From: a virus
Reading direction: 5' to 3' (one strand)
DNA length: 64,000 nt
Virus record (IMG/VR): IMGVR_UViG_3300021425_004462
Span: 1-64,000 of that record
Both the position numbers and the translations under genes were made by a program. Each line of letters opens with the position of its first letter. Position 1 is the stretch's first letter. Shown here piece after piece: positions 22,014 through 39,781 of this stretch. The notes below the pieces were generated by a model, which was given only the letters and a program-made list of their open reading frames with translations, made no database searches and had not been told where the DNA came from.

Positions 22014-22526
22014 ATGAGCGAATCAAATGCAGAAATAAATTACAATAATAAAATTATTAAATCCGAACTATACCATCTCTGGAAGAAGTCTAGAATAATG
22101 TACGATATGATTAAGGATGATCGTGATTTACAGGACTGGCAAAAAAAGAATATCCAGCAAGCAAGAGACTTATTAGATAAAGCTTTAATGTATAGCGAAT
22201 ATGATAATATGTTTCCCGAAAGAAAAGATGAAGAAATTGATGAACCTGCCAAAAATAATTTCTTATCGAATGAGGATAAAAGATATCCTACTCCAGCTGC
22301 GCAAGAAAGTGGGGATCAATTTGTTACAAGATGCATATTGGACGCAAATATGAAGAGAAGATATCCAGTGCAAGGAGATAGATTTTCTGCATGTATGACA
22401 TTGTTTAATGAAAATAAAAATAATGTAAGCGAGGACTTGCATAATAATCCTGGGGAAAAATTTGAAGATCCTATGGAAACTAAAGATCCTGATTTAAAGG
22501 ATCCTGTCAAGCCTATACTTCCTTGA
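22014..22526 (+). CDS. Hypothetical protein with PxP..E..F..RC...R..AC module
   Basis: YPTPAAQESGDQFVTRC...DRFSAC. Confidence 0.65.
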   Translation: MSESNAEINYNNKIIKSELYHLWKKSRIMYDMIKDDRDLQDWQKKNIQQARDLLDKALMYSEYDNMFPERKDEEIDEPAKNNFLSNEDKRYPTPAAQESGDQFVTRCILDANMKRRYPVQGDRFSACMTLFNENKNNVSEDLHNNPGEKFEDPMETKDPDLKDPVKPILP

Positions 22527-24969
22527 TTTTAAAAGATACTTTCTCTTTTAGATAGGAGAATTTAATTTGTTGATTATCGTCTAATTCTTTAGAAAGAAGG
22601 AGTTTTGATAATTCATTTTCTAAATTCTTTTGAATAAGTCGTTTTACAGGTCTTGCACCCATTTTCTGTTTAACAGCTTCAGCGGCAATATAATTTACAA
22701 AAGAAGGCGTTGCTCTAATAGATATTTTTCTATCTTTTAGCTTTTCTGATACATTATTTATTTCTAATTTAACTATTTTCTTTAATTGATCTACATTAAA
22801 ATCCTGAAACAATATTATCTCATTTAATCTATTTAGAAATTCAGGCTTAAAGAATACTTTTAATTCTGCTATAAGCTTTTGCTTGATTTGGTCTCCTGAC
22901 TCTAGTTGATTGAAGCCTATCATTGGTTTGGATACTTTTTCACTACCTATATTGCCTGTTAATATAACAATGCAATTATTAAAATTAACTTTACGCCCTG
23001 AATTATCTGTGACAAAACCTTCTTCGAGAATTTGTAGTAATATATTTAATACATCGGGGTGAGCTTTTTCGACTTCGTCAAAAAGAATAACGCTGTAAGG
23101 GTTTCTTCGAACTTTTTCTGTAAGCTCCCCGCCCTCTTCGTAACCTACATATCCCGGCGATGCACCAATTAATCTACTGGCAGATATCTTCTCTGAAAAC
23201 TCACTCATGTCTAGCTGGATGAGTTTGTCTTGTCCACCATAAATAAATTCTGCAATGCATTTTGCTGTGTATGTTTTTCCTGTTCCGCTTGCGCCGACAA
23301 GCAAAAAACTACCTACAGGTTTTCTTGGGTCTCTCAACCCGGATTTTGACCTTAAAATACACTCTGAAATTTCTTCTAGAGCTTTTGTTTGACCAATTAT
23401 TCTTTTCTTTAAAGAATTAAATAATCCTAACATTTTTTCAGAATCTTTTTGAGACATATCCTCAACAGGAACCCCTGTTCTTGAGGACACTACTTCAAAA
23501 ATATCTTTATCTGTAACTTCGATTCTTGTTTTAATTGTTTTTTTTGCCCATTTTTCAATAACGCTATCATATTCTTCTAAAAGATCTATTTGTTTTTCTC
23601 CGTTTTTTATGCTTTTAGAACTTAATAAATTATTCCTAGACTCATCAACAGCAATCTCTTCTAGCTCTTTTTCAATTTCTTTGGCTCTTTTGGGTCTAGT
23701 AATATTTTTAATTTTTACTTTAGATCCAGCTTGGTCCATGATATCTAAAGCTTTATCTGGAAACTGCTTTTCTAATAGATATCTTGCGCTTAAATCTACA
23801 ATCAATTTAAGAACTTCTTTAGAATAATGTATAGAATGAAAGCTTTCGTATTTCTTTTTTACTCCTGAAATTATTTCAAGAGTTTCTTCCTTAGAGGGCT
23901 CTTTCACCTTAATGGATTGAAACCTTCTGTCTAAAGCGCCATCTTTTAGTATTGTTTTTTTGTATTCATTTTGAGTAGTTGCCCCAATGCATTTTATTTC
24001 TCCTCTGGCAAGAAGTGGTTTTAATAAATTAGCTGCATCCATACCGCCTTCTGCATTTCCAGCTCCAACGAGAGTATGTATTTCGTCTATAAATAAAATA
24101 ATATTTGGATCTTTTTTCGCTTCATCAATTATACCTTTTAACCTTTCTTCGAACTGACCTCTATATTTTGTGCCAGCTATGAGTGATCCTAGATCTAAAG
24201 AGTATATTATTTTTCCTAAAAGAAAATCTGGAGATTCACTTTTGACTATTTTTTGAGCTAAACCTTCTACGATAGCAGTTTTTCCTACTCCAGGTTCCCC
24301 AAGAAGCACTGGATTATTTTTAGTTCTTCTACAAAGAATTTCGCAAGCCATATCGATCTCTTCTTGTTTTCCTATAATATTATCAAATTTACCTTTTAAT
24401 GCTAAAACATTAAAATTAACCGCATGCTTATCAAGCAAGTTTGATGATTCTTTTGTTTTTGCAGTAGATTTTTGAGGTGGAGATTGAGAAGCTTTTTGAT
24501 TGTGAACGTATGCATGATCTTTTGATAAATGCAAATATTCTCTGACTTCTGTAATAATGTCTTCCGCGGAAACATTAAACAAAGAAAAGTAAAAGGGGAT
24601 GTTTGAGTTTTCATATTTTAATAAAGCAAGTAATATATGCTCTATTCCTACGTATTCGTGCTCAAGTTTCTCACTAATTGATGCTGAAACCTTTAATACT
24701 AAATGAAAATGTTCATCATATTCTGGCTGAGTCTCTAAATCATCTACTGAGGGCATTTGCACAAAATTTTCTTCTAGTTGAGATTTAATTTGAATACGAT
24801 CTATATTTAGCAGAAATAATATTTCACTCAGAATCCCTGCATTTAATTGAATCATTCCATAAAAAAGATGCTCTAAGGAAACTTCCTTGTGGTAATATGA
24901 TTCTGCAGTAGATTTAGCTTTATTTATAGCTTGCTGCGCCCGAGGAGTAAAGTTGGGTTTTGGTATCAT
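22513..24969 (-). CDS. clpC: ClpC-like AAA+ unfoldase (Clp protease ATPase subunit)
   Basis: Clp N-domain (FTPRAQ, EHLF, EHILLAL), [33 protein letters not shown] loop; start 24969 or 24975. Confidence 0.92.
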
Positions 24970-24980
24970 TTTCATGTTAT

Positions 24981-24991: not shown

Positions 24992-27550
24992 CTATTTAAC
25001 TTCAGACATTTTCATATATATCTTTTCGTCCATTATACTCAATGAATCTAGAAAAACAATATCTTCACCTTTTCTTCCGTATGCCACTATTATACTCTTT
25101 TTTGATGGAGTTTTATTCTTTGAATCAAAATATCTATCATAGTAATTACCTCTGCGGGAGTTTAAAAGCATAGCGTCATATTTACCATGTTCATCTGTAA
25201 TTGATAATTTCATATATTTATTTCCATTTCTAGATGTTCTTTTAATGCAGTCTTCAACAACTCCAATAAATTTACCTTTATCATCTGAATTCATGAGGTT
25301 TAAGTCTCTTGAGTCTTTTAACGACTCATAAGAGTCCATAAAACATGATTTTAATGAAGAGCTATGGCTATATCCTAGAAGCTCTGTTTCAAAATACCAA
25401 TTAGCAAATCCTTGATACATTTTATTTTTATCGTAAATCTCTTTATATAAATCGTATTTTTTCTTAAATGTTTTGAATCTAGATTCTTTCATTAAAGGTT
25501 TACCATCGTCTCCTACTAGATCTCCTTTTTTAGCGTCTGCTATACAGTTTAGAAGTTTATATTCATACTTTTCTCCAAGAGCGATAAAGTTCCGCTTTTC
25601 TCTATCTGTTAATAAATTAAATGCTTGGGCCTCTAAAACCATCAACGACCTGTTTTTACCTTTACTCTCTAAGGCTCCAGCTTGAATTAATGCGCTCAAT
25701 ATACCAATATTTAATCCAGCTTGCTTTGCCGCGAGAAAAATATCATATTTCGTTGGGGTTTCGCTTGAGCGAAAGTTTTTGAGGGAATGTAAAGACTTTT
25801 CGCTTACCCCTTTGATGCTATTTAATCCAAATCGTATATCTTTACCTTCAATTGAAAAATCCATACCAGATTTAGCTAAGTCTGGAGAAAGTAATTTTAT
25901 TCCAAAATGAGAAAGCTCTTGACAAACTTTAGCTATTTCCTCTTGTGGAGATGGCTCGTATTTAGTCATCTTGAGAAGAGATATAAAGAATTGCTGTGGA
26001 TAATTAAATTTTAAATAAGCTGTCCATGCGGATAAAGTTGCATAGGCTAGAGAGTGGGATTTATTAAAAGAGTAATTAGCGCTATCTTCTGCTACGCTCC
26101 ACAAGATGTGCGATATCTCTCTAGGTAAATCATTTTCCTCTACTTTGTCTTCAATCTTCTTTTTCCAAGCTGGCATTTGTTCTACTTTTTTCTTACCGAC
26201 AATTCTTCTTAATTGTTCCGCTTCATCAAGAGTAAATCCAACTTTAACTGCCATTTGCATCAATTGCTCTTGGTAAAGTGGGATTCCTCCTGTATAATCC
26301 AAAACATCACTAAAGAACTCGTGAATAACCTGCGCTTCTTCTGTTTCAGAATATGTAGCATAATTATCTAAAAATTCTAGAGCTCCAGGCCTACCAATCG
26401 CTACAACCGCACTAAGTTGCTCTAGGTCCCTTGGTTTAATCTTTTTGCAAACCCTATAGTTTGTATCGGATTCAAGCTGAAAAAGCCCGTGAGGCGTTCT
26501 GAGTGTCTGCAATGGCTTATATACATCTGAATCATTTAGATCTACAGTAGAAATGTCTATGTCTAGATTTTTGCAGACATCATAAATAACGCTCAAGGTT
26601 CTTAATCCTAAAATATCGAACTTAACCATTAATTCTGCAACCCAATTCATATCGTATCCTGTAACCAAAGCTCCGTCATTTGATTTTTGAATTGGACAAA
26701 TATCTGTGATTTTTTGAAAAGAAATTGCAATACCGCTAGGATGAACTCCCGTATTTTTGTTTAAACCTTCTAATTTAAGAGCGATCTCAAATACTTCTGG
26801 ATTGGCTGCTGCCCAATCTGCGAATTTTTCACTTTCTTCTATTGCAGAAGAAATTGGCATAACAACTCCAAACTTTTTGGGGATAGTGTCACTAACTTCA
26901 TTGACCTCTTGCTCAGAAAATTCTCCAACAATTTTTCCACACTCTTTCACGCAAAGCTTTCCACTTAAGGTATTTAGCGTTAATATTTTAGCTGTACGAG
27001 CGGGATGTTTTTTTTCAATATATTCTATAACTTCAGCTCTTCTTTCATAAGCTATGTCGTTATCTACATCAGCTAAAAGACTTCCATCTAAATAGATTTC
27101 TCCATCTTTTTCTATTTTTCTTGCCCTACTTTTTGAAACAAAACGCTCAAAGAAAAGGCTGTACTTGACCGGATCTACATTTGTAACCCCAATTAGATAC
27201 AAAACCAAAGAGCCTGCAGCAGACCCTCTTCCTGGACCTGTCGGTATATCATTTTCGTGACAATAGTTTATTATGTCCCAGTTTAATAAAATATAATCTA
27301 TAAATCCTAATTCATCTAATATCTTTAATTCAGATTTTGCTCTTTCAAAATATTCTTTTTTATTTTTTAGCTTATCTATTCCTCTGTCATATACTCCTTT
27401 GTGACATAATTTGCGTAGAAAGTCTAGGTTAGAAATGTCTTCTGATGCTTCGAGCATTTCATAGTATTTCTTTTCAATTTTAATTTCTGGTAATTTTACG
27501 CCAGGAGGCGCACAGTCTTGGTAGTCTGTAAATTGTTCTGTAAAACTCAT
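24992..27550 (-). CDS. dnaE: DNA polymerase III alpha catalytic core (family C), lacking most of the PHP domain
   Basis: GPGRGSAAGSL, FERF, DVDND, HPSG, KFDILGL, YQEQ, FNKSH, IRFGL; TAATG overlap start. Confidence 0.93.
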   Translation of the reverse strand: MSFTEQFTDYQDCAPPGVKLPEIKIEKKYYEMLEASEDISNLDFLRKLCHKGVYDRGIDKLKNKKEYFERAKSELKILDELGFIDYILLNWDIINYCHENDIPTGPGRGSAAGSLVLYLIGVTNVDPVKYSLFFERFVSKSRARKIEKDGEIYLDGSLLADVDNDIAYERRAEVIEYIEKKHPARTAKILTLNTLSGKLCVKECGKIVGEFSEQEVNEVSDTIPKKFGVVMPISSAIEESEKFADWAAANPEVFEIALKLEGLNKNTGVHPSGIAISFQKITDICPIQKSNDGALVTGYDMNWVAELMVKFDILGLRTLSVIYDVCKNLDIDISTVDLNDSDVYKPLQTLRTPHGLFQLESDTNYRVCKKIKPRDLEQLSAVVAIGRPGALEFLDNYATYSETEEAQVIHEFFSDVLDYTGGIPLYQEQLMQMAVKVGFTLDEAEQLRRIVGKKKVEQMPAWKKKIEDKVEENDLPREISHILWSVAEDSANYSFNKSHSLAYATLSAWTAYLKFNYPQQFFISLLKMTKYEPSPQEEIAKVCQELSHFGIKLLSPDLAKSGMDFSIEGKDIRFGLNSIKGVSEKSLHSLKNFRSSETPTKYDIFLAAKQAGLNIGILSALIQAGALESKGKNRSLMVLEAQAFNLLTDREKRNFIALGEKYEYKLLNCIADAKKGDLVGDDGKPLMKESRFKTFKKKYDLYKEIYDKNKMYQGFANWYFETELLGYSHSSSLKSCFMDSYESLKDSRDLNLMNSDDKGKFIGVVEDCIKRTSRNGNKYMKLSITDEHGKYDAMLLNSRRGNYYDRYFDSKNKTPSKKSIIVAYGRKGEDIVFLDSLSIMDEKIYMKMSEVK

Positions 27551-28194
27551 TATACTTCTATCTCCCATATCATTTTTTTGAATACTTCGTAGTTAACTCT
27601 AATGTCATATAATGCATCATGCAATTTTTTCTCATCAAAGTCAACATCAAAATCTTTGCAGCACTGCTTGAGGTTACAACTTAAACCTCTTTCAATCAAA
27701 TGGTTAAGTCGATATTGCCATGCTAAAAAATTATCATCTTTATCCAGCCTTATTCTCTTTTTAAGAGCTTTTGCAAGACATAAGGTGTCCACTAAATGCT
27801 CTGTATAGCTAAAGTCGGTTTCTGAGTTTTCATCAATAAGTTTGCGATGAACATTATGCATGTAAACATCAAATCCTAGTAAGTTGTGGCCGACTTTAAG
27901 ATAGGAGTCGTCATACAAATATTTCTCGAAGTGGTCTAAGGCAGCTTTGGGGCATGTGGCCTTTTTCTTATATTTTGCCTCAGTAAAGCCAGTGATCTTT
28001 GCTGCGTCAGGTGATACATTTAATTCATCCCATTTGAGCCAGTAATCTTTTTGCTCTACAATTTTATTATTTTCTATTACAAGAAATGCTAATTGCCATG
28101 GTTTATTATTTGATACAAGATTTAAATTACATGTTTCATAATCAAACAGTAAATACTTTTTATTCTTTTGAAATCTAAGCAGTGATTCTTTCAT
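27550..28194 (-). CDS. dnaQ: DEDDh 3'-5' exonuclease (DnaQ/epsilon-like)
   Basis: FDYET, HNLLGFD, VDTL, HDALYD. Confidence 0.88.
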   Translation of the reverse strand: MKESLLRFQKNKKYLLFDYETCNLNLVSNNKPWQLAFLVIENNKIVEQKDYWLKWDELNVSPDAAKITGFTEAKYKKKATCPKAALDHFEKYLYDDSYLKVGHNLLGFDVYMHNVHRKLIDENSETDFSYTEHLVDTLCLAKALKKRIRLDKDDNFLAWQYRLNHLIERGLSCNLKQCCKDFDVDFDEKKLHDALYDIRVNYEVFKKMIWEIEV

Positions 28195-31806: not shown

Positions 31807-32820
31807 ATGAATGATAAAACAGGAGAATTACTAACAGAAAATATAGCGGGGGTAAATAGAATTTTACCACACAAACATAAATATGCATGGGATCTATTTT
31901 TAAAAAGTTGTGCAAATAACTGGATGCCTACTGAAATCAGTATGCAAAATGACATTAAACAATGGAAAAATGATGAAATTACTGAAGACGAAAAATTACT
32001 CGTTAAACGCTGCCTTGGGTTCTTTGCGGGATCTGAGTCTTTGGTTGGTAATAATCTGCTGCTTTCGGCTTTTAGATTTATTACTGATGCTGAATGCCGT
32101 CAGTATATACTTCGTCAAGCTTTTGAGGAAAGCCTTCATAACCTTACGGTAGTTTATATTTGTGATAGCCTAGATCTTAATATAGAAGAAGTTTTCGCTG
32201 CTTATGAAACAATTCCAAGTATTAAAGCTAAAGATGACTTTTTAATGGGCATTACTAATGATATTAGTCGTCAAGATTTTGACGCTCATACTATAGAGGG
32301 CAAGCAAGAAATTTTACGCAATTTTTTGACTTATTGGATTGTTTGCGAAGGAACATTCTTTTTTAGCGGATTTGCAATGTTATTGGCTTTAGGTAGACAA
32401 AACAAACTTCAAGGAATATCTGACCAAATTAAATATACTCTAAGGGACGAAAGTTCTCATATTGCGTTCGGAACTTATTTAATTAACACCTTGATTGATC
32501 AAAATCCAGAAATATGGACAAAAGAAATTCAAAATGAATTTGTGGAGCATATGAAAAAAGCTGTAGAGCTTGAAATAGCTTATGCTCACGATGTTCTTCC
32601 TACAGGAATACTTGGGCTAAATGCAGACATGTTTGTTGACTATATGCACTACATTGGAAATCGTAGATTAGAGGGTATTGGCTTAGACTATCGCTTTCCT
32701 AGCGATAAAAATCCTTTCCCTTGGCTTAGTGAGGTTGTTGATGTTCAAGCAATGGGAAATTTCTTTGAAAGAAGAGTTAGAGAGTATCAACAAAGCGGAT
32801 CTTTAGAAGACGATTTCTAA
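31807..32820 (+). CDS. nrdB: Ribonucleotide reductase beta subunit, class Ic-like (no radical Tyr)
   Basis: GFFAGSESLVGNN, EESLHNLTV, EGTFFFSGF, RDESSH, NFFERRVREY. Confidence 0.93.
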   Translation: MNDKTGELLTENIAGVNRILPHKHKYAWDLFLKSCANNWMPTEISMQNDIKQWKNDEITEDEKLLVKRCLGFFAGSESLVGNNLLLSAFRFITDAECRQYILRQAFEESLHNLTVVYICDSLDLNIEEVFAAYETIPSIKAKDDFLMGITNDISRQDFDAHTIEGKQEILRNFLTYWIVCEGTFFFSGFAMLLALGRQNKLQGISDQIKYTLRDESSHIAFGTYLINTLIDQNPEIWTKEIQNEFVEHMKKAVELEIAYAHDVLPTGILGLNADMFVDYMHYIGNRRLEGIGLDYRFPSDKNPFPWLSEVVDVQAMGNFFERRVREYQQSGSLEDDF

Positions 32821-33885
32821 TAAAGAAGATTCAACTGTTACTCCTGGACCAAAAGTTGCAGAAAAAATATTTTTCTCACCGTTTGAGCGATTTTCCAAAA
32901 TCTCTTTTAGTACAAATAAAATAGTGGGGCTACTCATATTTCCGTATTCTTTAAGAATATTTCTAGAATGTTTTAAATCTGCATCAGGTTTAAATTTTTG
33001 AAACGAATCAAGTATTGCCCTTCCCCCAGGGTGAATTGCCCAACAATCTATAGAGTTCTCTATTTCCAATATATGCTCGAGAGCTTCATTTATATTTTCG
33101 GATATAAAACTTGGAAGATCTGAATTTAAGGTTAAATCAAAACCATTGTCTCCGATTTTCCATGCTAAATTTTTTCCATCATCATTTATGACATGAGAAT
33201 TGAATGATTTAACTTCTAGAAATGGTTGTGTTTTTGTTAATTTTTCATCAGAAGAAACTATGCAGGCCGCACACCCATCAGAGAAAATAGAGTTTCCTAT
33301 AATATAGTTGGGATCATCTGTTAGTTTCATGTGAAGCGTACACATCTCAATGCAAACAACTAAAACCTTAGCATCTTTATTGCTCTTACAAAATTCTGAT
33401 GCGGTTTTTAATGCGGGAAATGCAGCTTGACATCCCATAAATCCAATATTTACCCTTTCTATGTTTTTATTTAAATTAAATTCATTTATTATCTCTATAT
33501 CTAAACCTGGATTATAAAAACCTGTACATGAAACGGTTATAAGGTGGGTAATTTCTTGTAGGTTTATTTTGTTTGAAATTTTTGATATCGCCTTGAAGGC
33601 GAGGGGTCCGCTATTTTTTTTATATATATTATTTCTTTCTGAAGTAGAAGGGTTATGCAAAGTCTTGTTTTCATTTCTATGAAAAAGTTCTGTTTCCGTA
33701 GTTGAAAGCCTTAAGTCTTTTAATACGGAATATCTATTTTTAATACCAGATTTTTTGATTGCTTGTTTAATTAAAAGCTTGTATCTTCTGTCATCTTGAA
33801 ATTCATTGATGAAATTGTAAATTTCTTCTTGACTACCTTTATGTTCAGGGTTTGAGGTTTCTATGCAGTTTATATAAATTCCCAT
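32803..33885 (-). CDS. Type III polyketide synthase (chalcone synthase superfamily)
   Basis: VSCTG, GFMGCQAAF (catalytic Cys), EMCTLH, FSDG, HPGGRAIL (His), GNMSS (Asn), FGPG. Confidence 0.92.
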   Translation of the reverse strand: MGIYINCIETSNPEHKGSQEEIYNFINEFQDDRRYKLLIKQAIKKSGIKNRYSVLKDLRLSTTETELFHRNENKTLHNPSTSERNNIYKKNSGPLAFKAISKISNKINLQEITHLITVSCTGFYNPGLDIEIINEFNLNKNIERVNIGFMGCQAAFPALKTASEFCKSNKDAKVLVVCIEMCTLHMKLTDDPNYIIGNSIFSDGCAACIVSSDEKLTKTQPFLEVKSFNSHVINDDGKNLAWKIGDNGFDLTLNSDLPSFISENINEALEHILEIENSIDCWAIHPGGRAILDSFQKFKPDADLKHSRNILKEYGNMSSPTILFVLKEILENRSNGEKNIFSATFGPGVTVESSLLEIVF

Positions 33886-33922
33886 AAAATATATTATGGA
33901 AATTTAAAATGAATTCAATAAA

Positions 33923-35215
33923 TTACCCTAAAATGTCTAATAGAGGCTCTCCCTTGTGTGCTATAGTAAAAGGTCTTCCTGAGGGAGAGTATTGGTAGTC
34001 ATTTAATGGTAAACCCAAAGTGTGTGCAATTGTCGCATTTAAGTCTTCTGGTTTAATAGGTTTGCCTTCTGTAGGAGTTCGACCCGTTTTGTCGGTCTCT
34101 CCATAAGTCATTCCACCTTTAATTCCTCCTCCTGCTAAAAAAGCTGTAAAGCAATAAGGCCAGTGATCTCTTCCGTCTCTTCCGTTAATATTTGGAGTTC
34201 TTCCGAATTCAGAAGTTAAAACTACCAAGGTATCGGAAAGCATACCTCTTCGATTTAAATCAATTAGCAGACCACTTAATGCGTGATCAATATCGGTGCA
34301 ATTTGCTGCTACTCTGTCAAAGTTATTATCGTGCGTATCCCATCCTCCCCTTGTTACTTCAACATATCTTACGCCATGCTCTACAAGCCTTCTTGCTAAT
34401 AAGCATCCTTTTGCAAAATTAGTTTGCCCATAAAGATTACTTGTTGACTCAGGCTCTTTTGTGATATCAAAAGCGTTTAAATCATTACTGTTCATTAATT
34501 TAATTGCATCTTTATATAAGTCAGAATAAGCTCTTACTTTTTTCTGTGGAAACTGAGTAGAGAAATTTTCATTTAAAGCTTCTGCAATAGATATTCTACT
34601 TTGGAAATGTTCATGATCCAAGTATGAGGCCATTTTACTATTAGCTAATCCTGAGCTTGGATTATTAATTGGCAATGCTCCATATTTAGATTCTAAAAAA
34701 CCAGCGCCGCCTCCGCCGCCACCTATTTTAACATTGCTGGGTATTGTTCTGTTGATTGAGCCAGAAAGTTTAGATACCCAGCTACCAAATGTAGGGTGAA
34801 CAATTGTACCTCTTTTAAGATAGCTTGTGTGCATTAAATAACTGGCTTGCTCATGCGCTCCTTGGCTTGTGTTCATTGTTTTAATTATTGCTGCATGATG
34901 CATAAGCTCGGCAGTTTTTGGCAAGTTTTCAGAAAGAATTACTCCATCTGCGCTTGTTGGTATAGATTTGGTGGGACCTTGAATATCTGGAGCGTCTGGC
35001 TTTGGTCCAAATGTATCAAGGTGAGACATAGCTCCTCCCATATTTAAATAAATTACGTGCCTTGCTGTAGGAACTCTTGCTCCTGGATTTAGCGCACTAA
35101 CACTATTATGTATATATGCTCCTGCCATTGGCATAAGTCCTACCCCAAAACATGCTTTTGCGGCATGAGCTATAAATTCTCTTCTTCCTAGTTCATCTAT
35201 TGTATTAAAGTTCAT
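33923..35215 (-). CDS. DUF1501-family Tat-exported protein
   Basis: RREF twin-arginine signal; GGAMSHLDTF, CLLARRLVEHGVRYVEV, GWDTH, SEFGRTP, GRDHW. Confidence 0.9.
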   Translation of the reverse strand: MNFNTIDELGRREFIAHAAKACFGVGLMPMAGAYIHNSVSALNPGARVPTARHVIYLNMGGAMSHLDTFGPKPDAPDIQGPTKSIPTSADGVILSENLPKTAELMHHAAIIKTMNTSQGAHEQASYLMHTSYLKRGTIVHPTFGSWVSKLSGSINRTIPSNVKIGGGGGGAGFLESKYGALPINNPSSGLANSKMASYLDHEHFQSRISIAEALNENFSTQFPQKKVRAYSDLYKDAIKLMNSNDLNAFDITKEPESTSNLYGQTNFAKGCLLARRLVEHGVRYVEVTRGGWDTHDNNFDRVAANCTDIDHALSGLLIDLNRRGMLSDTLVVLTSEFGRTPNINGRDGRDHWPYCFTAFLAGGGIKGGMTYGETDKTGRTPTEGKPIKPEDLNATIAHTLGLPLNDYQYSPSGRPFTIAHKGEPLLDILG

Positions 35216-35225
35216 AATAGATTAT

Positions 35226-35259
35226 TACACAATTTTGAGAAAAGTCAACACAAAGTGTA
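35226..35259. promoter_or_regulatory. Back-to-back divergent GTGTA elements (plus a minus-strand TTGACT at 35243-35248)
   Basis: Minus site 35226-35230 is 10 nt before ATG 35215; plus site 35255-35259 is 9 nt before GTG 35269. Confidence 0.7.
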
Positions 35260-35268
35260 TGATATATT

Positions 35269-35655
35269 GTGCAGTTTTTATTACTTATCTTCTTAACTTG
35301 CAGTATTTTATGCGCTAAATTACAGATTAAAGATTATTTGGATGATTGCGATTGGTGCAAGAATCAGCTTAAAAGCACTCAACCTTTAGATATTGGTGAA
35401 TGGAGTATGAGATGCCAAAAAAAGCCGAAACCAATATGGTTTAATTATAGAAATATAGGCAGAGTCTATGGAACTTATAAAGAAAAAACTTCTATGTGTT
35501 GGATTTATTCTGAGAAATTAGGCTGGATATATAACACTCCTCAATACAAAGATTATATTTATACTCACAAACTTGGATGGATATATATAAAAGATGGTAA
35601 GGTTTATGTTTTTAAAAAGAAAAAGTGGGATTATTTTACAAATATAAATTCATGA
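35269..35655 (+). CDS. Small secreted Trp/Tyr-rich protein with CxxC
   Basis: Signal peptide; CDWC; two IYxxKLGWIY repeats. Confidence 0.65.
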   Translation: MQFLLLIFLTCSILCAKLQIKDYLDDCDWCKNQLKSTQPLDIGEWSMRCQKKPKPIWFNYRNIGRVYGTYKEKTSMCWIYSEKLGWIYNTPQYKDYIYTHKLGWIYIKDGKVYVFKKKKWDYFTNINS

Positions 35656-37901
35656 GTGTTAATTAATGTCCATATTATTTCTTTGTATGCATCTTTAGTA
35701 TTTTTTATATTATCTGTAAAAATTTTAATTTCTTTAGTAGAAGGTTCTCTATTTAATATATATTTATATCCTATTGTAATTTTATCACTCAATGACTTTT
35801 GAGACTCTATTGCTTTTATAATTTCAAAGTTTTTATTTTTTAATAATCTAGTTTCAACAAATCCATTCAGGAGATTTAATACTTGTGTCGCAGAGGCACT
35901 TTTATTTGCGTTTTCTATCTGCTCCCTATCTGAACCACCAAACTCACGAATAAGGTGCCCTATGGGCGCAGGAGAGGGTAGTTCTGAGGCTCTAACTGAA
36001 TTGCGGTCTTTCACAAAGTTTTGCTTATACTCTTTTTTCTTATTTTCCATTTGAGATTTGAATTTATCAACACAAGACTCACAACAAAAAGCTACAGTTT
36101 CTCCGTTTTCATTTAGGGCTAATAATGTTGGGTCAATTGCTCTACCCGGTTTGATTGGACAGTCTGTGTTTATTGGCTTACTGAATTTAGACTTGCTTTG
36201 AGTTTTAGGTCTTTCAGTTTTGTTTATTTTTGCCATCAATTCTGAAAACAATTCTTCTCCTGTCATTTCTGAAAAATTTTGAAAATTTTGATATCCTTTT
36301 GTGTTTTGCTCTAATTTTCTAGAATCAACATTATTTACTGTCAAATTAACTAAAGAGTCCCAGATTTGCTCTCCACTCATTCTTTCAAGTATAGGTCCTT
36401 GATAGAAATATGGTACTGCATTTTTAGATTGATTTTCGCTGTCTGGGCCAGCTACAACCCATTTCACTTCTACAGGCATAGACTGATCTTTGTTGTCTTT
36501 AGGGATAACGTCTCTAACCACAGACTGACGCTGAAAAGTTTTTGTATTATATAATATTCTAAGAAATTCCTTAAGGTCATAATTTAATGCAACCATAACT
36601 TTTTCGAGATGAAGTTGAAGTTTTGGGTCCGTAGCTAATGTGTCGTCAAACATATTGTCTATGGGCTCAATTAATGCTAGTCCAAAAGCTTCTTTCCAGA
36701 GTCGATTGACAATGACTGCTGTAAATCTTGGGTTTGAATCTGAAGCTAGCCAGTTTGCATAAATTTCTCTAGATCCTGATTGAGGAGCTTTTGTTTTAAT
36801 ATCTATCTCTTCTCCAAAAATAGTTTTACCCATTAACGATTGGTTTGGTTTTGCGTTGTCGTATTGATAATCTTTCGGAAGATTTATCTTTCCATTACCC
36901 ATGCTGGCTAGTCCGGTTTGAAGAATATCTTGTATATCTCTCACGCCGTTTTGTAATTGCCTTGATTTTTGCGGCTCATCATTATTTTCTAACTTGCGTC
37001 TTTCATCTCTCGCTAATCTGTTTAATACGGTTAAATTTTCTGGACTTTTGGTTCTTAAGTTAGTTGAGCCACTCGTAAAAGCTGCCATTTCATAAAATTG
37101 CTTTTGAGTCCATCGATCAAATGGATGATCGTGGCACTGGGCACATTCTAAGCTAGTACCTAAAAATACTCTAACTGTATTTGCCATACTGTCTAATGGC
37201 ATGTTTACATCACGAGCAAAATAACTAACTCCTTCATTACCTTTGATCCATAATGGGCCAGAAGAAGAAAGCATCTCTCTCACCCATTCATCATAAGGCT
37301 TGTTGTTAGAGATGAAATCTTTGACATAATTTTTATATGGAACACCAGATATTCTATTATTTAATCTGTCTTTAATTCTTAATATATCTGCCCAGAAATT
37401 AAACCAATGACTTACATATCCTTCACTACCTAATAATTGATCAATTAGCTGCGATCTTTTGTTTTTATCTTTTCTATTTAAAAAAGTATCTACTTCTGTT
37501 AAAGATGGAGTTCTGCCTATAACCTTTAAGTATGATCTGCGTAAAAATGTAGCGTCGTCAACTTCTTTATTTGGTCGAAGATTATATCCTCTAAGTTTTG
37601 TTTCGATCAAGCTATCAATATAATTGGCATGAGTTTTTAAATCTTTCTCTGATAGCGGTTTTTTGAATTTAGGCAAAGCTTCGTGACTGGGCGGAAAGTT
37701 ATTTTTAATATAAGCTTGATTATCTTCTGTTAAAGAATCTATCGCTATTCTGAATAACTGTAAATCACTAGATCTTTTTATTAAAGCGTGGGTTGCATTC
37801 GCCTCAAGAATATCTCCTTTAAGATCTTTTCCGTTATTAAAATAAAGCGTATCGCCGAAGCAATAAATTGATGATAAGAATAATAAAATTAGTTTTTTCA
37901 T
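35631..37901 (-). CDS. DUF1549/DUF1553 (PSCyt2/PSD1) cytochrome-c-type protein with YHS-like insert
   Basis: Signal MKKLILLF at 37901; DDATFLRR, CAQCHDHPFD heme motif, NPRFTAVIVNRLW, CPIK...FCCESC, EFIF end. Confidence 0.9.
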   Translation of the reverse strand: MKKLILLFLSSIYCFGDTLYFNNGKDLKGDILEANATHALIKRSSDLQLFRIAIDSLTEDNQAYIKNNFPPSHEALPKFKKPLSEKDLKTHANYIDSLIETKLRGYNLRPNKEVDDATFLRRSYLKVIGRTPSLTEVDTFLNRKDKNKRSQLIDQLLGSEGYVSHWFNFWADILRIKDRLNNRISGVPYKNYVKDFISNNKPYDEWVREMLSSSGPLWIKGNEGVSYFARDVNMPLDSMANTVRVFLGTSLECAQCHDHPFDRWTQKQFYEMAAFTSGSTNLRTKSPENLTVLNRLARDERRKLENNDEPQKSRQLQNGVRDIQDILQTGLASMGNGKINLPKDYQYDNAKPNQSLMGKTIFGEEIDIKTKAPQSGSREIYANWLASDSNPRFTAVIVNRLWKEAFGLALIEPIDNMFDDTLATDPKLQLHLEKVMVALNYDLKEFLRILYNTKTFQRQSVVRDVIPKDNKDQSMPVEVKWVVAGPDSENQSKNAVPYFYQGPILERMSGEQIWDSLVNLTVNNVDSRKLEQNTKGYQNFQNFSEMTGEELFSELMAKINKTERPKTQSKSKFSKPINTDCPIKPGRAIDPTLLALNENGETVAFCCESCVDKFKSQMENKKKEYKQNFVKDRNSVRASELPSPAPIGHLIREFGGSDREQIENANKSASATQVLNLLNGFVETRLLKNKNFEIIKAIESQKSLSDKITIGYKYILNREPSTKEIKIFTDNIKNTKDAYKEIIWTLINTHEFIFVK

Positions 37902-37931
37902 TGTAGGATTATAATATTTATAAACTATAAT

Positions 37932-37936
37932 TACAC
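37932..37936 (-). promoter_or_regulatory. GTGTA putative phage promoter element
   Basis: Abuts the terminator U-tract; 30 nt to ATG 37901. Confidence 0.55.
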
Positions 37937-37962
37937 AAAAAAGCCACCCATTTCTGGGTGGC
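37937..37962 (-). terminator. Rho-independent terminator after the beta-barrel gene
   Basis: gccaccca-tttc-tgggtggc stem with an A6 tract on the + strand. Confidence 0.85.
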
Positions 37963-37986
37963 GATATGGAACGTTTATTAGATTTC

Positions 37987-38637
37987 TTAAAAAGAAAAAC
38001 TAAGTCCTGCAGACAATAAATCTTCTCCGTCCATAGATTCAGAGTCGACTCTAGCATATCCTACAGAAGCTTCGATAGAATCAGTTAGATCTTTTGAAAG
38101 AATCGCTCCGACTTGATAGTAATCGTTGTTTTGAAGATCATACCTATCTGCATTACCAACTGATCCGCCCACAGTTAGGTTTGCGAATTGCAAATTAAAA
38201 CCATGAGATACCCCTCCTTCGAATACATAGTTATTATCACTAGTATCTCTTTGAATTAATACATAAGGCGACAATGCAGTATTCAAGCTCAATCTCACAA
38301 CTGCATCAAGTTGGCTTTTACCGTTTACAGCTTCTTCATGCTCAAAGCCTACATAAGCTTTGAGTAGATCTGTAAATTTAGAAGAAGCTCCTACAGAAAA
38401 AATATAAACACTTTGTCCATCAGAGAGTTCATCGAAAGAAGACGCCGAACCCTCAAGGGTTAAGCTTTCAATTTCTTGACTATAACCCACCGAAGCAGAA
38501 AGATTTTCTTCTGTCAATAAGGAGCCTTTGTTGAATGTATCAGTTCCGTATTCAAGAGATACAGAACCTGATCCAGCATAAGCCGCGTTAATAATAAGCG
38601 CCGTAATGGCAGTAAGGGTAATTAATAATTTTTTCAT
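37987..38637 (-). CDS. Outer-membrane beta-barrel protein (putative porin)
   Basis: Signal peptide ending AYA, amphipathic beta strands, C-terminal AGLSFSF. Confidence 0.8.
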   Translation of the reverse strand: MKKLLITLTAITALIINAAYAGSGSVSLEYGTDTFNKGSLLTEENLSASVGYSQEIESLTLEGSASSFDELSDGQSVYIFSVGASSKFTDLLKAYVGFEHEEAVNGKSQLDAVVRLSLNTALSPYVLIQRDTSDNNYVFEGGVSHGFNLQFANLTVGGSVGNADRYDLQNNDYYQVGAILSKDLTDSIEASVGYARVDSESMDGEDLLSAGLSFSF

Positions 38638-39184: not shown

Positions 39185-39781
39185 TTATTTTTTAAAAAGA
39201 AAGTTTCTCCATTCTGGACGCTCTGATTGGAACGGATGAAAGAATGGATACGGATAAGAAGGCTTTAAATCCTCACCTTTATAGTTTTTGTAAGGATATA
39301 TGGCAGCTTTTTTTGAGTTGCAGGGTTGGCAAGTTAATGTGACATTATGACTCTCTTTTGTGCCACCTTTACTTTTTGGATAAATATGTTCTATTGTTGT
39401 ATCTTTTATATCAAACTTATCTCCACAAATTTGACATCTACCTTTATATCTTTTATGTAAATATCTTAAATTAGGTTTTTCTTTTGTTTGGTATACCCAT
39501 TTTGCGGTAGTGAGTAATATAGTGGGTACGGGGTATAGTTTGTTCGATGAAGACATAAATGGCTGATTCTTGTAATAAGAAGCTCGCTCTTCATCTATCC
39601 ACTCTTCCCAAAATAACGGCTCTCCTGATTGAGATAAAACTTTAACTGAAGAATTTTTATCAAAAACAGAGCCGCAAGATATTAATTTCCTAATACCTTC
39701 TTTCGCTGTAGTGATATTGATTGGAGTCCAGAAGTGAGAGAGTATTAATACTACTCTATCTTTTCCTTGTATGAGATCCAA
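39185..39781 (-). CDS. HNH endonuclease (McrA-like)
   Basis: CQICG...TIEHIYPKSKGG...NVTLTCQPCNSKK. Confidence 0.9.
   Translation of the reverse strand: MDLIQGKDRVVLILSHFWTPINITTAKEGIRKLISCGSVFDKNSSVKVLSQSGEPLFWEEWIDEERASYYKNQPFMSSSNKLYPVPTILLTTAKWVYQTKEKPNLRYLHKRYKGRCQICGDKFDIKDTTIEHIYPKSKGGTKESHNVTLTCQPCNSKKAAIYPYKNYKGEDLKPSYPYPFFHPFQSERPEWRNFLFKK

What the first reader, a model, noticed from the sequence alone, without database searches (positions are those of the whole stretch)
32803..38637. Phage-borne PVC-type envelope/redox cassette: beta-barrel, DUF1549/1553 heme protein, Tat DUF1501 and type III PKS
Seen: four same-strand genes between nrdB and hsp20. They encode an outer-membrane beta-barrel, a secreted protein with an intact CAQCH heme motif, an RR-signal DUF1501 protein and a type III PKS 37 bp further on. 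Established: DUF1549/DUF1553 plus DUF1501 pairs are hugely expanded, uncharacterised hallmarks of Planctomycetota/Verrucomicrobiota genomes. Seen: the heme and DUF1501 genes are each preceded by the same GTGTA motif as the capsid and portal operons, and the DNA is as AT-rich as the phage core. Inference: this is a domesticated, late-expressed phage module that remodels the host periplasm or envelope (redox enzyme pair plus an aromatic lipid), not fresh host contamination. I know of no description of this combination in a phage, and one compact copy would be a tractable handle on DUF1501/1553 function.
Basis: partly seen in the sequence, partly recalled or inferred. Interest (0 to 1): 0.88.

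Follow-up and report, generated by a model that had tools for sequence, protein, structure and literature searches.

The report
Phage-borne Opitutales DUF1501 enzyme pair
A large uncultured ocean phage carries two strongly conserved exported genes copied from marine Verrucomicrobia (a phosphatase/sulfatase-fold enzyme and its haem-motif partner, predicted to bind each other), while the neighbouring polyketide synthase and outer-membrane protein genes are separate add-ons and not part of one cassette.

Summary
The genes are real. On the minus strand lie an OMP-like gene, a PSCyt2/PSD1 (DUF1549/DUF1553) gene with CAQCH, a Tat-signal DUF1501 gene and an intact type III PKS. They sit in a 122-kb IMG/VR phage record.

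They are not one cassette. Among 49 related phage loci, DUF1553 adjoins DUF1501 in 33 and the OMP adjoins the pair in 17. The PKS occurs in 1 of 47. In the window a terminator-like hairpin separates the OMP from DUF1553, and an opposite-strand gene splits the pair.

The core is a host-derived pair. The nearest cellular copies (72-80% identity) are one conserved locus in 23 marine Opitutales genomes. A single phage clade is rejected (AU p 3e-5). Phage copies evolve at dN/dS of about 0.02-0.09.

DUF1501 models as an alkaline-phosphatase-superfamily enzyme without the sulfatase motif. A related phage's pair is predicted to form a heterodimer (score 0.85, best control 0.00).

The substrate is unknown, and "late expression" and "envelope remodelling" are not shown.

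This scan has already noted the same pair on other DNA: 167 notes in at least 118 genomes. My literature searches found no published phage report.

The parts
33923..35215 (-). DUF1501 gene (430 aa): a Tat-signal, alkaline-phosphatase-superfamily enzyme. It is the core auxiliary gene.
   Evidence: - Pfam PF07394: E 2.3e-109, 366.6 bits.
- R11 and R12 are invariant in 41 of 41 homologues.
- AF2 model pLDDT 85.5.
- VIA-align Z 20.8 to ENPP6 and 19.9 to PafA; S1 sulfatases reach at most 19.2.
- Present in 49 IMG/VR loci.
- dN/dS 0.018-0.09.
35631..37901 (-). PSCyt2/PSD1 (DUF1549/DUF1553) gene (756 aa): a Sec-signal partner protein with an SHD1-like N-terminal domain, CAQCH and one TRASH-like Cys motif.
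   Evidence: - Pfam hits.
- C253, C256, H257 and H259 are invariant in 24 of 24 sequences.
- Residues 15-71 match SHD1 at Z 7.4.
- TRASH_HVO_1752_C is a weak hit (E 0.008), and a CPIK...FCCESC motif is present.
- Adjacent to DUF1501 in 33 of 49 phage loci.
35226..35230 (-). GTGTA motif 10 nt before the DUF1501 ATG. It lies inside a sigma-70-like site at 35248-35221.
   Evidence: TTGACT-16-AATAAT, 10 of 12 matches, preceded by TG.
35269..35655 (+). orf128: a small protein with a signal-peptide-like N-terminus and no known family, inserted on the opposite strand between the two genes. It has its own GTGTA at 35255-35259 (N9, GTG start).
   Evidence: - ORF.
- No Pfam or NCBIfam hit.
- A homologue above 50% identity sits at the same place in 9 of 49 loci.
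- Motif seen.
37932..37936 (-). GTGTA motif 30 nt before the DUF1553 ATG.
37943..37962 (-). Terminator-like hairpin followed by a T run, just after the OMP gene's stop codon.
   Evidence: 8 pairs, 6 of them GC.
37987..38637 (-). OMP-like gene (216 aa). It belongs to the upstream DUF5824-HNH-hsp20-OMP unit, not to the enzyme pair.
   Evidence: - Phage_OMP E 3.8e-4, below the cut-off.
- Found in 36 of 49 loci and adjacent to the pair in 17.
- The only GTGTA upstream of this unit is at 41222.
32803..33885 (-). Type III polyketide synthase (360 aa): a sporadic add-on, probably co-transcribed with DUF1501.
   Evidence: - Pfam Chal_sti_synt_N and _C.
- C152, H285 and N316 are invariant in 18 of 18 sequences.
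- Found in 1 of 47 related loci and on a single IMG/VR contig.
- No GTGTA in the 37-bp spacer.

Best explanation
**What it is**
The window is part of an uncultured marine phage whose hosts are probably marine Opitutales (Verrucomicrobiota). The core of the finding is a host-derived auxiliary gene pair.
- DUF1501 is a Tat-exported metalloenzyme of the alkaline-phosphatase/sulfatase superfamily.
- The upstream PSCyt2/PSD1 protein is Sec-exported. It carries an invariant CxxCH and a TRASH-like Cys motif.

**How it most likely works (inferred)**
- The two proteins form a periplasmic heterodimer. The C-terminal helices of PSD1 dock on the helical cap of DUF1501. This is a prediction, made with a related phage's pair.
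- The complex supplements the host's own orthologous locus during infection.
- My most likely guess, at about one in three, is hydrolysis of a phospho- or sulfo-ester to release a limiting nutrient. The haem-motif subunit would link it to the host's adjacent c-type cytochromes. The substrate is unknown.

**What is not part of it**
- The OMP-like gene belongs with hsp20 in a separate transcription unit.
- The type III PKS is a recent insertion found in only one sublineage. It is catalytically intact and probably co-transcribed with DUF1501. No functional tie to the pair is shown.
For: **Phage context**
- The record is a 122-kb IMG/VR virus record, CheckV completeness 86%.
- Terminase, DnaE-type polymerase, DnaB-like helicase and tail-fibre families match in 5 of 10 proteins tested.

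**Spread among phages**
- DUF1501 is found in 49 distinct viral loci at 62-99% identity.
- DUF1553 lies directly upstream in 33 of the 49.

**Host origin**
- Of the best 80 cellular loci, 23 (L051-L073) are 72-80% identical in DUF1501. All 23 are titled Opitutia, Opitutales, Puniceicoccaceae, Verrucomicrobiota or Ca. Seribacter. Apart from two exceptions set out in the full report (L074 and L080), no other of the 80 exceeds 52%.
- Those 23 loci have GC 0.38-0.52 and share no other gene with the phage, except a 31-36% hit in 4 of them.
- They keep one synteny: multihaem-TPR gene | DUF1553 | DUF1501 | PSCyt1 cytochrome | SufS | sulfatase.

**Phylogeny**
- Phage and Opitutales copies form one clade with 100% SH-aLRT support.
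- The phage label needs at least 3 changes on the tree.
- A single phage clade is rejected: delta lnL 195, AU p 3.1e-5.

**Selection**
- Window against L003: dN 0.013, dS 0.73, ratio 0.018 for DUF1501.
- The median ratio is 0.074 over 39 usable DUF1501 pairs and 0.063 over 12 usable DUF1553 pairs.

**Fold**
- Z 19.8-20.8 to ENPP6, ENPP7, ENPP4, PafA and Xac NPP; sulfatases reach at most 19.2.
- There is no [CS]xPxR motif.
- Invariant residues are T68, H121, D293, H295, N297, N298, R339, R349 and H351.

**Complex**
- ipSAE 0.85 (runs 0.84-0.86), best of 3 controls 0.00.
- That mark was reached by 58 of 80 solved complexes and 2 of 110 mismatched pairs.
- The runs share at least 86% of their contacts, and partner pLDDT is at least 87.
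- No solved relative exists that could explain the pass from memory.

**Transcription units**
Against: **Function and expression**
- No function of any DUF1501 or PSD1 protein has been tested anywhere that I could find.
- Hydrolase chemistry rests on fold alone. NPP-type and sulfatase-type matches differ by only about 1.5 Z units.
- No expression data were obtained.

**The complex prediction**
- It used the pair of a related phage (L026; 73% and 53% identical to the window's proteins), because the window's pair exceeded the size limit.
- It used my own alignments.
- The predicted interface residues are no more conserved than the rest: 0.557 against 0.568 for DUF1553, and 0.504 against 0.582 for DUF1501.
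- The CxxCH is not in the predicted interface.
- The CxxCH lies in a stretch modelled at pLDDT below 50. Haem attachment is therefore unproven.

**Gene content**
- 15 of 49 phage loci carry DUF1501 with no DUF1553, so the partner is dispensable for the phage.
- The host's third gene, the PSCyt1 cytochrome, is never carried by the phages.

**Statistics and host**
- dS is close to saturation in many pairs. Only 39 of 136 and 12 of 45 pairs were usable.
- The host assignment is inferred from gene phylogeny alone.
Confidence: 0.6

Rival explanations
1. All four genes form one domesticated, late-expressed envelope and redox cassette: an OMP, a redox enzyme pair and a PKS-made aromatic lipid that together remodel the host periplasm or envelope.
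For: - All four genes are on the same strand and contiguous in the window and in L002.
- Three of the products carry export signals.
- The PKS follows DUF1501 after 37 bp with no GTGTA of its own, so it is probably co-transcribed.
- GC3 is uniform across the genes.
Against: - The PKS is present in 1 of 47 related loci and on one IMG/VR contig.
- The OMP is adjacent to the pair in only 17 of 49 loci and lies elsewhere in 19 more.
- A terminator-like hairpin follows the OMP gene.
- An opposite-strand gene splits the pair.
- 15 loci have DUF1501 alone.
- GTGTA also precedes non-structural genes, so it does not mark late genes.
Confidence: 0.07
2. The pair is an envelope-modifying or exclusion device and not a nutrient-scavenging enzyme. 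On this reading DUF1501 acts like the alkaline-phosphatase-superfamily transferases (EptA, LtaS, PbgA-type). It would alter a periplasmic or outer-membrane component so as to block superinfection or protect the infected cell.
For: - The fold search also lists LtaS (Z 17.2), EptA (16.6), EptC (16.1) and PbgA/YejM (16.4 and 16.1).
- Phages often export exclusion proteins (general knowledge, not from any call).
- The pair frequently neighbours the OMP and hsp20 genes: the OMP is adjacent in 17 of 49 loci.
Against: - Those transferases score below the NPP, PafA and sulfatase matches.
- They are membrane-anchored, whereas DUF1501 has a Tat signal and, by my reading, an AxA-type cleavage site.
- The gene is an orthologue of a conserved chromosomal host locus that sits with cytochromes. 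That pattern fits a housekeeping metabolic role.
Confidence: 0.15
3. The pair is a genuine redox enzyme. The CxxCH haem of PSCyt2 passes electrons between a substrate bound by DUF1501 and the host's PSCyt1 and multihaem cytochromes. The phage would use it to boost host respiration or detoxification.
For: - The CxxCH is invariant in 24 of 24 sequences.
- In the host, a PSCyt1 cytochrome gene lies directly downstream in 22 of the 22 loci that gave hits. A multihaem-TPR gene lies upstream in 13 of them.
- Kamneva et al. 2012 (PMC3542564; passages read) proposed an electron-transport role.
Against: - Known alkaline-phosphatase-superfamily enzymes are hydrolases, transferases or mutases (general knowledge, not from any call).
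- The phages never carry the cytochrome genes, and 15 loci lack even the CxxCH partner.
- The CxxCH is not in the predicted interface.
Confidence: 0.15
4. The region is host DNA joined to phage DNA by misassembly or mis-binning.
For: The nearest cellular copies are 72-80% identical, and two NCBI proteins at 77-80% identity are labelled as Verrucomicrobiota MAG proteins.
Against: - 49 viral contigs carry the gene between phage genes.
- L002 repeats the whole arrangement at 88.8% DNA identity.
- GC3 is 0.24, like its phage neighbours, while host loci have GC 0.38-0.52.
- No other host gene is present in the phage DNA.
- The error found runs the other way. L074, a 210-kb contig in a 'Cellvibrionales' MAG with GC 0.35, carries phage genes.
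Confidence: 0.02

Closest known systems
The 'DUF1501 + PSCyt1/PSCyt2/PSD1 conserved genetic module' of Planctomycetes, Verrucomicrobia and Lentisphaerae (Kamneva et al. 2012, PMC3542564, passages read; He et al. 2017, PMC5615132, passages read)
   Same: - A Tat-signal DUF1501 gene lies next to a signal-peptide PSCyt2/PSD1 gene on the same strand.
- The CxxCH is kept.
- The function is unknown in both cases.
   Different: - Here the module is carried by a phage.
- It is a single copy, not one of many paralogues.
- The phage protein has no PSCyt1 domain. In the Opitutales donor locus, PSCyt1 is a separate third gene, which the phages never carry.
- In this window the pair is split by an opposite-strand gene.
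- The partner carries a TRASH-like Cys motif that the more distant homologues lack.
Phage auxiliary metabolic genes for nutrient acquisition, such as cyanophage pstS and phoA (recalled; not taken from any call)
   Same: - The gene is host-derived.
- It is embedded among phage genes.
- Its composition has shifted to match the phage.
- It is under purifying selection.
- The product is exported.
   Different: - No substrate or pathway is known.
- It is a two-subunit module.
- The host is Verrucomicrobiota.
- No match exists in 50,697 deposited phage records.
NPP/PafA-type phosphodiesterases and phosphatases, and S1 sulfatases (alkaline-phosphatase superfamily)
   Same: The core fold matches: Z 19.8-20.8 over 242-275 aligned residues at rmsd 3.0-4.5 for the NPP and PafA entries, and Z up to 19.2 for sulfatases.
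   Different: - Sequence identity is only 11-17%.
- There is no formylglycine motif.
- Only the C-terminal third aligns to sulfatases by profile methods.
- DUF1501 has an extra helical cap, which is where the partner is predicted to dock.
The type III PKS annotated in Streptomyces phage ZL12 (GQ919031)
   Same: It is a type III PKS gene in a record deposited as a phage.
   Different: - It is only 24% identical.
- Its host is an actinomycete.
- The window's PKS is nearest (42-46%) to proteins labelled Bacteroidota, Balneolales and Verrucomicrobia.

Membership tests
DUF1501 (PF07394) | Pfam model match above the gathering score | tested here: met
   366.6 bits against a cut-off of 27, covering profile positions 1-390 of 390.
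DUF1501 (PF07394) | Twin-arginine (Tat) signal | tested here: met
   GRREFI is present, and R11 and R12 are invariant in 41 of 41 sequences. Actual export was not tested.
PSCyt2/PSD1 (PF07583 + PF07587) | Both Pfam models above the gathering score, plus a CxxCH inside PSCyt2 | tested here: met
   155.2 and 90.3 bits. CAQCH is invariant in 24 of 24 sequences.
PSCyt2/PSD1 as a c-type cytochrome | Covalently bound haem | not testable with these tools
   Only the motif is seen, and the model is of low confidence there (residues 249-263 at pLDDT below 50).
PVC DUF1501-PSCyt/PSD1 genetic module (Kamneva 2012) | The two genes are adjacent on one strand | tested here: met
   They are adjacent in 33 of 49 phage loci. 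In the window they are on the same strand but 415 bp apart, with orf128 between them.
PVC DUF1501-PSCyt/PSD1 genetic module (Kamneva 2012) | A PSCyt1 cytochrome c domain in the partner protein | tested here: not met
   There is no PSCyt1 hit in the phage protein even at E up to 10. In the host, PSCyt1 is a separate downstream gene with no homologue in phage DNA. The paper also describes architectures without it.
S1 (formylglycine) sulfatase | A C/S-x-P-x-R motif that carries the formylglycine | tested here: not met
   The motif is absent from the window's DUF1501, and only 1 of 41 homologues has any such pentapeptide in its first 150 residues. The host's neighbouring true sulfatase has an invariant CTPSR.
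Alkaline-phosphatase superfamily | Core alpha/beta fold | tested here: met
   Z 15.6-20.8 to the 50 listed superfamily entries. Foldseek gives E 2.4e-7 to sulfatases.
Alkaline-phosphatase superfamily | Metal-binding Asp/His residues and a nucleophile in the active site | tested here: inconclusive
   Invariant D293, H295, H351, H121 and T68 are candidates. No residue-level superposition was available, and profile alignment covered only the C-terminal third.
Type III polyketide synthase | Chal_sti_synt N and C domains and the Cys-His-Asn triad | tested here: met
   80.2 and 77.1 bits against a cut-off of 27. C152, H285 and N316 are invariant in 18 of 18 sequences. The product was not tested.
Phage_OMP (PF24653) beta-barrel | Pfam model match above the gathering score | tested here: not met
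   21.1 bits against 27, E 3.8e-4, covering only residues 1-111. The signal peptide and the C-terminal Phe are my own reading of the sequence. The fold was not modelled.
Auxiliary metabolic gene (AMG) | Of cellular origin, flanked by phage genes and conserved in phages | tested here: met
Auxiliary metabolic gene (AMG) | A defined metabolic reaction | not testable with these tools
   No member of either family has a tested function in the papers I searched.

The most novel reading that the evidence does not exclude
- DUF1501 and PSCyt2/PSD1 together would be a previously unrecognised kind of two-subunit periplasmic enzyme. A haem- and metal-bearing helical subunit would dock on the cap of an alkaline-phosphatase-fold catalytic subunit and couple ester processing to the cytochrome chain.
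- Phages of marine Opitutales would have captured this one paralogue several times because it relieves a nutrient bottleneck during infection.
- In this sublineage the enzyme would be transcribed together with a phage type III PKS, so that a phenolic lipid is made in the infected cell.
Probability: 0.15. Interest if true: 0.8.

Novelty: new variant of a known kind. Interest (0 to 1): 0.55.

Why it matters
- DUF1501 and PSCyt/PSD1 proteins are among the largest orphan families of Planctomycetota and Verrucomicrobiota, with tens of paralogues per genome. No function has been tested for any of them.
- Phages have picked one particular paralogue pair, more than once, and keep it under strong purifying selection. 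That marks this orthologue as physiologically important.
- The phage copy is compact, AT-rich and single-copy. Together with a concrete heterodimer prediction, it makes expression, structure determination and activity screening practical.
- It also links a family of 120-210-kb marine phages to Opitutales hosts. As far as I recall, few phages are known for these bacteria.
- The PKS is a rare example of a polyketide synthase in a marine phage, but it is a side feature.

Tried and rejected
**Searches that found nothing or little**
- DNA search of the 5.8-kb region against deposited phages: no match.
- DUF1501 protein against 50,697 deposited phage records: no match.
- Literature:
  - 'DUF1501' + 'phage' gave 2 papers, both irrelevant. 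One is a 61-aa weak CDD hit. The other I saw only in the search listing.
  - 'DUF1553' + 'DUF1501' gave 0 papers.
  - 'DUF1501' + 'virus' + 'auxiliary metabolic' gave 0 papers.
  - 'DUF1501' alone gave 12 papers.
  - 'DUF1800' gave 6 papers, none on function as judged from the listing.
- NCBIfam: no family for either DUF protein, the OMP or orf128.
- Pfam at E up to 10: no link from PSD1 to DUF1800 or to any other family.
- ESM Atlas: the nearest named clusters were DUF1552 (HXXSHH) at 0.80-0.81. That is below the level at which shuffled proteins also score, so it is only a lead.

**Structure and profile comparisons that did not resolve the question**
- Fold search with the whole DUF1553 model: no match at Z 8 or more. 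Only the N-terminal domain resembles SHD1, and the single domains were not searched separately.
- Profile-profile alignment of DUF1501 to the host sulfatases: only the C-terminal third aligned (probability 6%), so no active-site mapping was possible.
- I expected the interface residues to be more conserved than the rest, and they are not.

**Sequencing runs**
- 20 rows in 11 studies hold part of the stretch, and no RNA holder is listed. None of these was laid, so this is evidence of nothing.

**Other limits**
- Supplementary files were not consulted. Figure S14 of Kamneva et al. (the DUF1501 phylogeny) might show where the Opitutales orthologue sits.

Full report
**What is in the window**

The region holds five genes, not four. 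Four lie on the minus strand.
- 38637..37987 encodes a 216-aa OMP-like protein. Pfam Phage_OMP gives only E 3.8e-4, 21.1 bits against a cut-off of 27.
- 37901..35631 encodes a 756-aa PSCyt2/PSD1 (DUF1549/DUF1553) protein (E 2.9e-45 and 1.7e-25).
- 35215..33923 encodes a 430-aa DUF1501 protein (E 2.3e-109).
- 33885..32803 encodes a 360-aa type III PKS.

The fifth gene is a 128-aa ORF on the plus strand (35269..35655). It lies between DUF1553 and DUF1501 and matches no known family.

The single CAQCH is at residue 253. The GRREFI twin arginine is invariant in 41 of 41 homologues. GC3 is 0.23-0.24 for all five genes from the PKS to hsp20.

**Is it a phage?**

The window is the first 64 kb of a 122,059-base IMG/VR virus record, classed linear, with CheckV completeness 86%. 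Of 10 large proteins tested against PHROGs, 5 matched families: terminase large subunit, DNA polymerase, DnaB-like helicase, tail fibre and ATP-dependent protease. The other 5 matched nothing. The polymerase is DnaE-like and at most 35% identical to those of deposited phages.

**Transcription units**

GTGTA is a real signal in this genome.
- There are 81 sites against about 254 expected from base composition.
- 24 of them fall in the 3.1% of bases outside ORFs.
- 18 of 81 have an ATG 9-10 nt downstream.

It precedes DUF1501 (N10), orf128 (N9, GTG start) and DUF1553 (N30). Upstream of DUF1501 it is part of a sigma-70-like TTGACT-16-AATAAT site with a TG.

No GTGTA lies before the PKS, the OMP gene or hsp20. 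The nearest one upstream of the OMP heads the DUF5824 gene at 41211. A hairpin of 8 pairs (6 of them GC) followed by a T run sits just after the OMP stop codon.

The likely units are therefore:
- DUF5824-HNH-hsp20-OMP;
- DUF1553;
- orf128, on the opposite strand;
- DUF1501-PKS.

The motif also heads a ClpB-like ATPase gene and glycosyltransferase genes, so it does not mark late genes.

**Relatives among phages**

A scan of IMG/VR with DUF1501 gave 55 pattern matches. Of these, 53 encode a relative, in 49 distinct loci at 62-99% identity, on contigs of up to 214 kb.

Synteny in those 49 loci:

| Feature | Count |
|---|---|
| DUF1553 directly upstream of DUF1501 | 33 of 49 |
| DUF1553 absent with at least 2.5 kb of upstream DNA available | 15 of 49 |
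| Too short to tell (L041) | 1 of 49 |
| OMP homologue anywhere in the locus | 36 of 49 |
| OMP within 400 bp of the pair | 17 of 49 |
| orf128 homologue above 50% identity between the two genes | 9 of 49 |
| PKS, among loci with at least 1.2 kb of downstream DNA | 1 of 47 |

A separate IMG/VR scan with the PKS found the same single contig. That contig, L002, repeats the window's whole arrangement at 88.8% DNA identity over 1,503 bp. This argues against a chimeric assembly. In L003, which is 98% identical in DUF1501, the printed junction sequence shows a GC-rich hairpin where the window has the PKS (my reading).

No deposited phage genome has DUF1501 (0 of 50,697 records at E up to 1e-5).

**Cellular source**

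A scan of one genome per GTDB species gave 350 pattern matches. Of these, 325 encode relatives, and the best 80 were kept.
- Loci L051-L073 (23 loci) are 72-80% identical. All are titled Opitutia, Opitutales, Puniceicoccaceae, Verrucomicrobiota or Candidatus Seribacter, and two are single-cell genomes.
- L080 is a partial Verrucomicrobiota hit at 75%.
- L074, at 70%, is a 210-kb contig in a 'Cellvibrionales' MAG.
- Every other locus is at or below 52%.

I ran 103 ORF products of the phage record against all loci. L051-L073 share only DUF1553 (47-58%; 33% for a truncated copy; no hit in L072, where DUF1501 starts 6 bases from the contig end) and DUF1501, plus a 31-36% hit to one phage protein in 4 loci. 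Their GC is 0.38-0.52 against 0.34 for the phage. L074 has GC 0.35 and three further phage genes, so I count it as a mis-binned phage contig.

The Opitutales loci keep one synteny: multihaem-cytochrome-TPR gene (divergent) | DUF1553 | DUF1501 | PSCyt1 cytochrome c | SufS-family cysteine desulfurase | S1 sulfatase. Of the 22 loci that gave hits:
- 22 have the PSCyt1 gene directly downstream;
- 19 have SufS and the sulfatase;
- 13 have the multihaem gene.

None of these neighbours has a homologue in any phage locus or in the whole phage record at E up to 1e-3.

**Phylogeny and selection**

The maximum-likelihood tree has 98 rows. I dropped rows shorter than 380 aa or longer than 480 aa, and L101-L130. 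It joins 50 phage and 23 Opitutales copies in one clade with 100% SH-aLRT support, and the phage label needs at least 3 changes. Forcing one phage clade costs 195 log-likelihood units (AU p 3.1e-5). The same paralogue has therefore moved between Opitutales and their phages more than once.

Phage copies are under strong purifying selection.
- Window against L003: dN 0.013, dS 0.73, ratio 0.018 for DUF1501, and ratio 0.049 for DUF1553.
- The median ratios are 0.074 (39 usable of 136 pairs) and 0.063 (12 usable of 45 pairs).
- dS is near saturation in the remaining pairs, and no phage-host pair was usable.

**What the proteins look like**

*DUF1501*
- The AF2 model has pLDDT 85.5 and pTM 0.85.
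- VIA-align gives ENPP6 Z 20.8, ENPP7 20.7, ENPP4 20.2, PafA 19.9 and Xac NPP 19.8. S1 sulfatases follow at 19.2 or below, then LtaS, EptA, PbgA and classical alkaline phosphatases at 15.6-17.2.
- Foldseek ranks sulfatases first, at E 2.4e-7.
- By sequence, only the C-terminal third matches sulfatases.
- The formylglycine motif is absent, while the host's neighbouring true sulfatase has an invariant CTPSR.
- Invariant residues include T68, H121, W292-D293-T294-H295, N297, N298, R339, R349 and H351.
- It is therefore an alkaline-phosphatase-superfamily metalloenzyme, not a formylglycine sulfatase. Its chemistry is unresolved.

*DUF1553*
- The model has pLDDT 71.6 and is mostly helical. It is poorly modelled around the CxxCH.
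- No solved fold reaches Z 8. Residues 15-71 resemble an SHD1 domain (Z 7.4, rmsd 2.0, 56 residues aligned).
- C253, C256, H257 and H259 are invariant in 24 of 24 sequences.
- A CPxK...x...FCCxxC motif gives a weak TRASH hit (E 0.008).
  - It occurs twice in 8 of the 10 Opitutales proteins aligned.
  - It occurs once in the window and the 8 phage proteins closest to it.
  - It is absent from L026 and from the 4 distant homologues.

**Do the two proteins bind?**

The window's own pair was too long for the tool, so I used the pair of the related phage L026: residues 98-714 and 54-436, with alignments of 23 and 41 rows.
- The score was 0.85 (runs 0.85, 0.86, 0.84). The best of 3 controls was 0.00.
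- That mark was reached by 58 of 80 solved complexes and 2 of 110 mismatched pairs. These counts hold only roughly, because my own alignments were used.
- The runs share at least 86% of their contacts, and partner pLDDT is at least 87.
- The interface joins the C-terminal PSD1 helices (residues 603-714) to the helical cap of DUF1501 (residues 165-247).
- No relative of either protein has been solved, so the pass is unlikely to come from memory.

Two points count against the prediction. Interface residues are no more conserved than the rest (0.557 against 0.568, and 0.504 against 0.582). The CxxCH is not at the interface.

**The PKS**

Its Cys-His-Asn triad is intact (C152, H285 and N316 invariant in 18 of 18 sequences). 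Its close relatives are few: 94%, 70%, 67% and a partial one at 71%. All other hits are at or below 46%, and the labelled ones come from Bacteroidota, Balneolales, Verrucomicrobia and others. The only deposited phage with a match is Streptomyces phage ZL12, at 24% identity and annotated as a type III PKS. The PKS is therefore a rare, recent addition to one sublineage.

**Literature and earlier notes**

Kamneva et al. 2012 (PMC3542564, passages read) described the DUF1501 + PSCyt/PSD1 module of PVC bacteria. They proposed electron transport and membrane targeting, with function unknown. He et al. 2017 (PMC5615132, passages read) also say nothing is known of the function. No paper I found reports the module in a phage.

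This scan has noted the same pair on other DNA, with 167 notes in at least 118 genomes. Earlier follow-ups reached the same Opitutales and Verrucomicrobia origin. I re-derived that origin independently here.

**Verdict**

The interpretation as a single four-gene, late-expressed envelope cassette does not.

What is there is a host-derived, strongly conserved two-gene periplasmic enzyme module. Related phages often carry it as DUF1501 alone. The OMP-hsp20 unit and a sporadic PKS lie beside it.

The mechanism is part shown and part inferred.
- Export signals and fold are shown by sequence and model.
- The heterodimer is predicted.
- Ester hydrolysis for nutrient release is my best guess, at about one in three.
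- A redox role and an envelope-modifying role remain open.

Noticed in passing
whole G000 record; in the window e.g. 2737, 11344, 21997, 35255, 51987, 55090 (+) and 10689, 11329, 24981, 35226, 41222, 47537, 56312, 63213 (-): GTGTA is about three times rarer than expected (81 sites against about 254), yet it is concentrated before start codons. 24 sites lie in the 3.1% of bases outside ORFs, and 18 have an ATG 9-10 nt downstream. The following bases usually read TAtAAt. This looks like a -10-type promoter giving leaderless or near-leaderless mRNAs. It heads genes of many classes, not only structural ones.
   Followed up: partly
window 35269-35655 (+): orf128 is a small protein with a signal-peptide-like N-terminus and repeated KLGWIY-like segments, and it matches no family. 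It is inserted between DUF1553 and DUF1501 in the window and in 9 of 49 related loci. In the other loci that have both genes, the two lie 14-76 bp apart.
   Followed up: partly
L074 (contig of 210,818 bases in a MAG titled Cellvibrionales): With GC 0.35, a DUF1501 of the phage clade and three further homologues of this phage's genes, it is most likely a phage contig binned into a bacterial MAG.
   Followed up: partly
L051-L073, about 7 kb around the DUF1501 match: Marine Opitutales keep a fixed locus: multihaem cytochrome-TPR | PSCyt2/PSD1 with two TRASH-like motifs | DUF1501 | PSCyt1 cytochrome c | SufS-family desulfurase | S1 sulfatase. In L056, glyoxalase-family and low-molecular-weight phosphatase (LMWPc) genes follow (both confirmed by Pfam there only; L064 and L054 have ORFs of similar size at the same place, not scanned). 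The phages take only the first two enzyme genes.
   Followed up: partly
window 35631-37901 (-), protein residues about 585-625: The copy number of the TRASH-like Cys motif (CPIK...FCCESC) differs by lineage. It is 2 in 8 of the 10 host proteins aligned, 1 in the window and the 8 phage proteins closest to it, and 0 in the L026 phage protein and the 4 distant homologues. This suggests a dispensable metal-binding insert in PSD1.
   Followed up: partly
window 39185-39781 (-): An HNH endonuclease gene (HNH_5, E 3.1e-13) sits between the DUF5824 gene and hsp20. It is missing from some related loci, as expected for a mobile homing-type gene.
   Followed up: no
window 24992-27568 (-) and 22513-24975 (-): The replicative polymerase is DnaE-like (Pol III alpha type) and at most 35% identical to deposited phages. 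Next to it lies an 820-aa ClpB-like ATPase (phrog_4871, E 2.6e-243). This phage family has no cultured relative in the collection searched.
   Followed up: no
window 9131-10489 (+): A 452-aa phage protein with no Pfam or PHROG family has 31-36% matches in 4 Opitutales loci. In L064 the match falls inside a cadherin/TSP3-repeat protein gene. It may be a host-like adhesion domain on a phage fibre.
   Followed up: no
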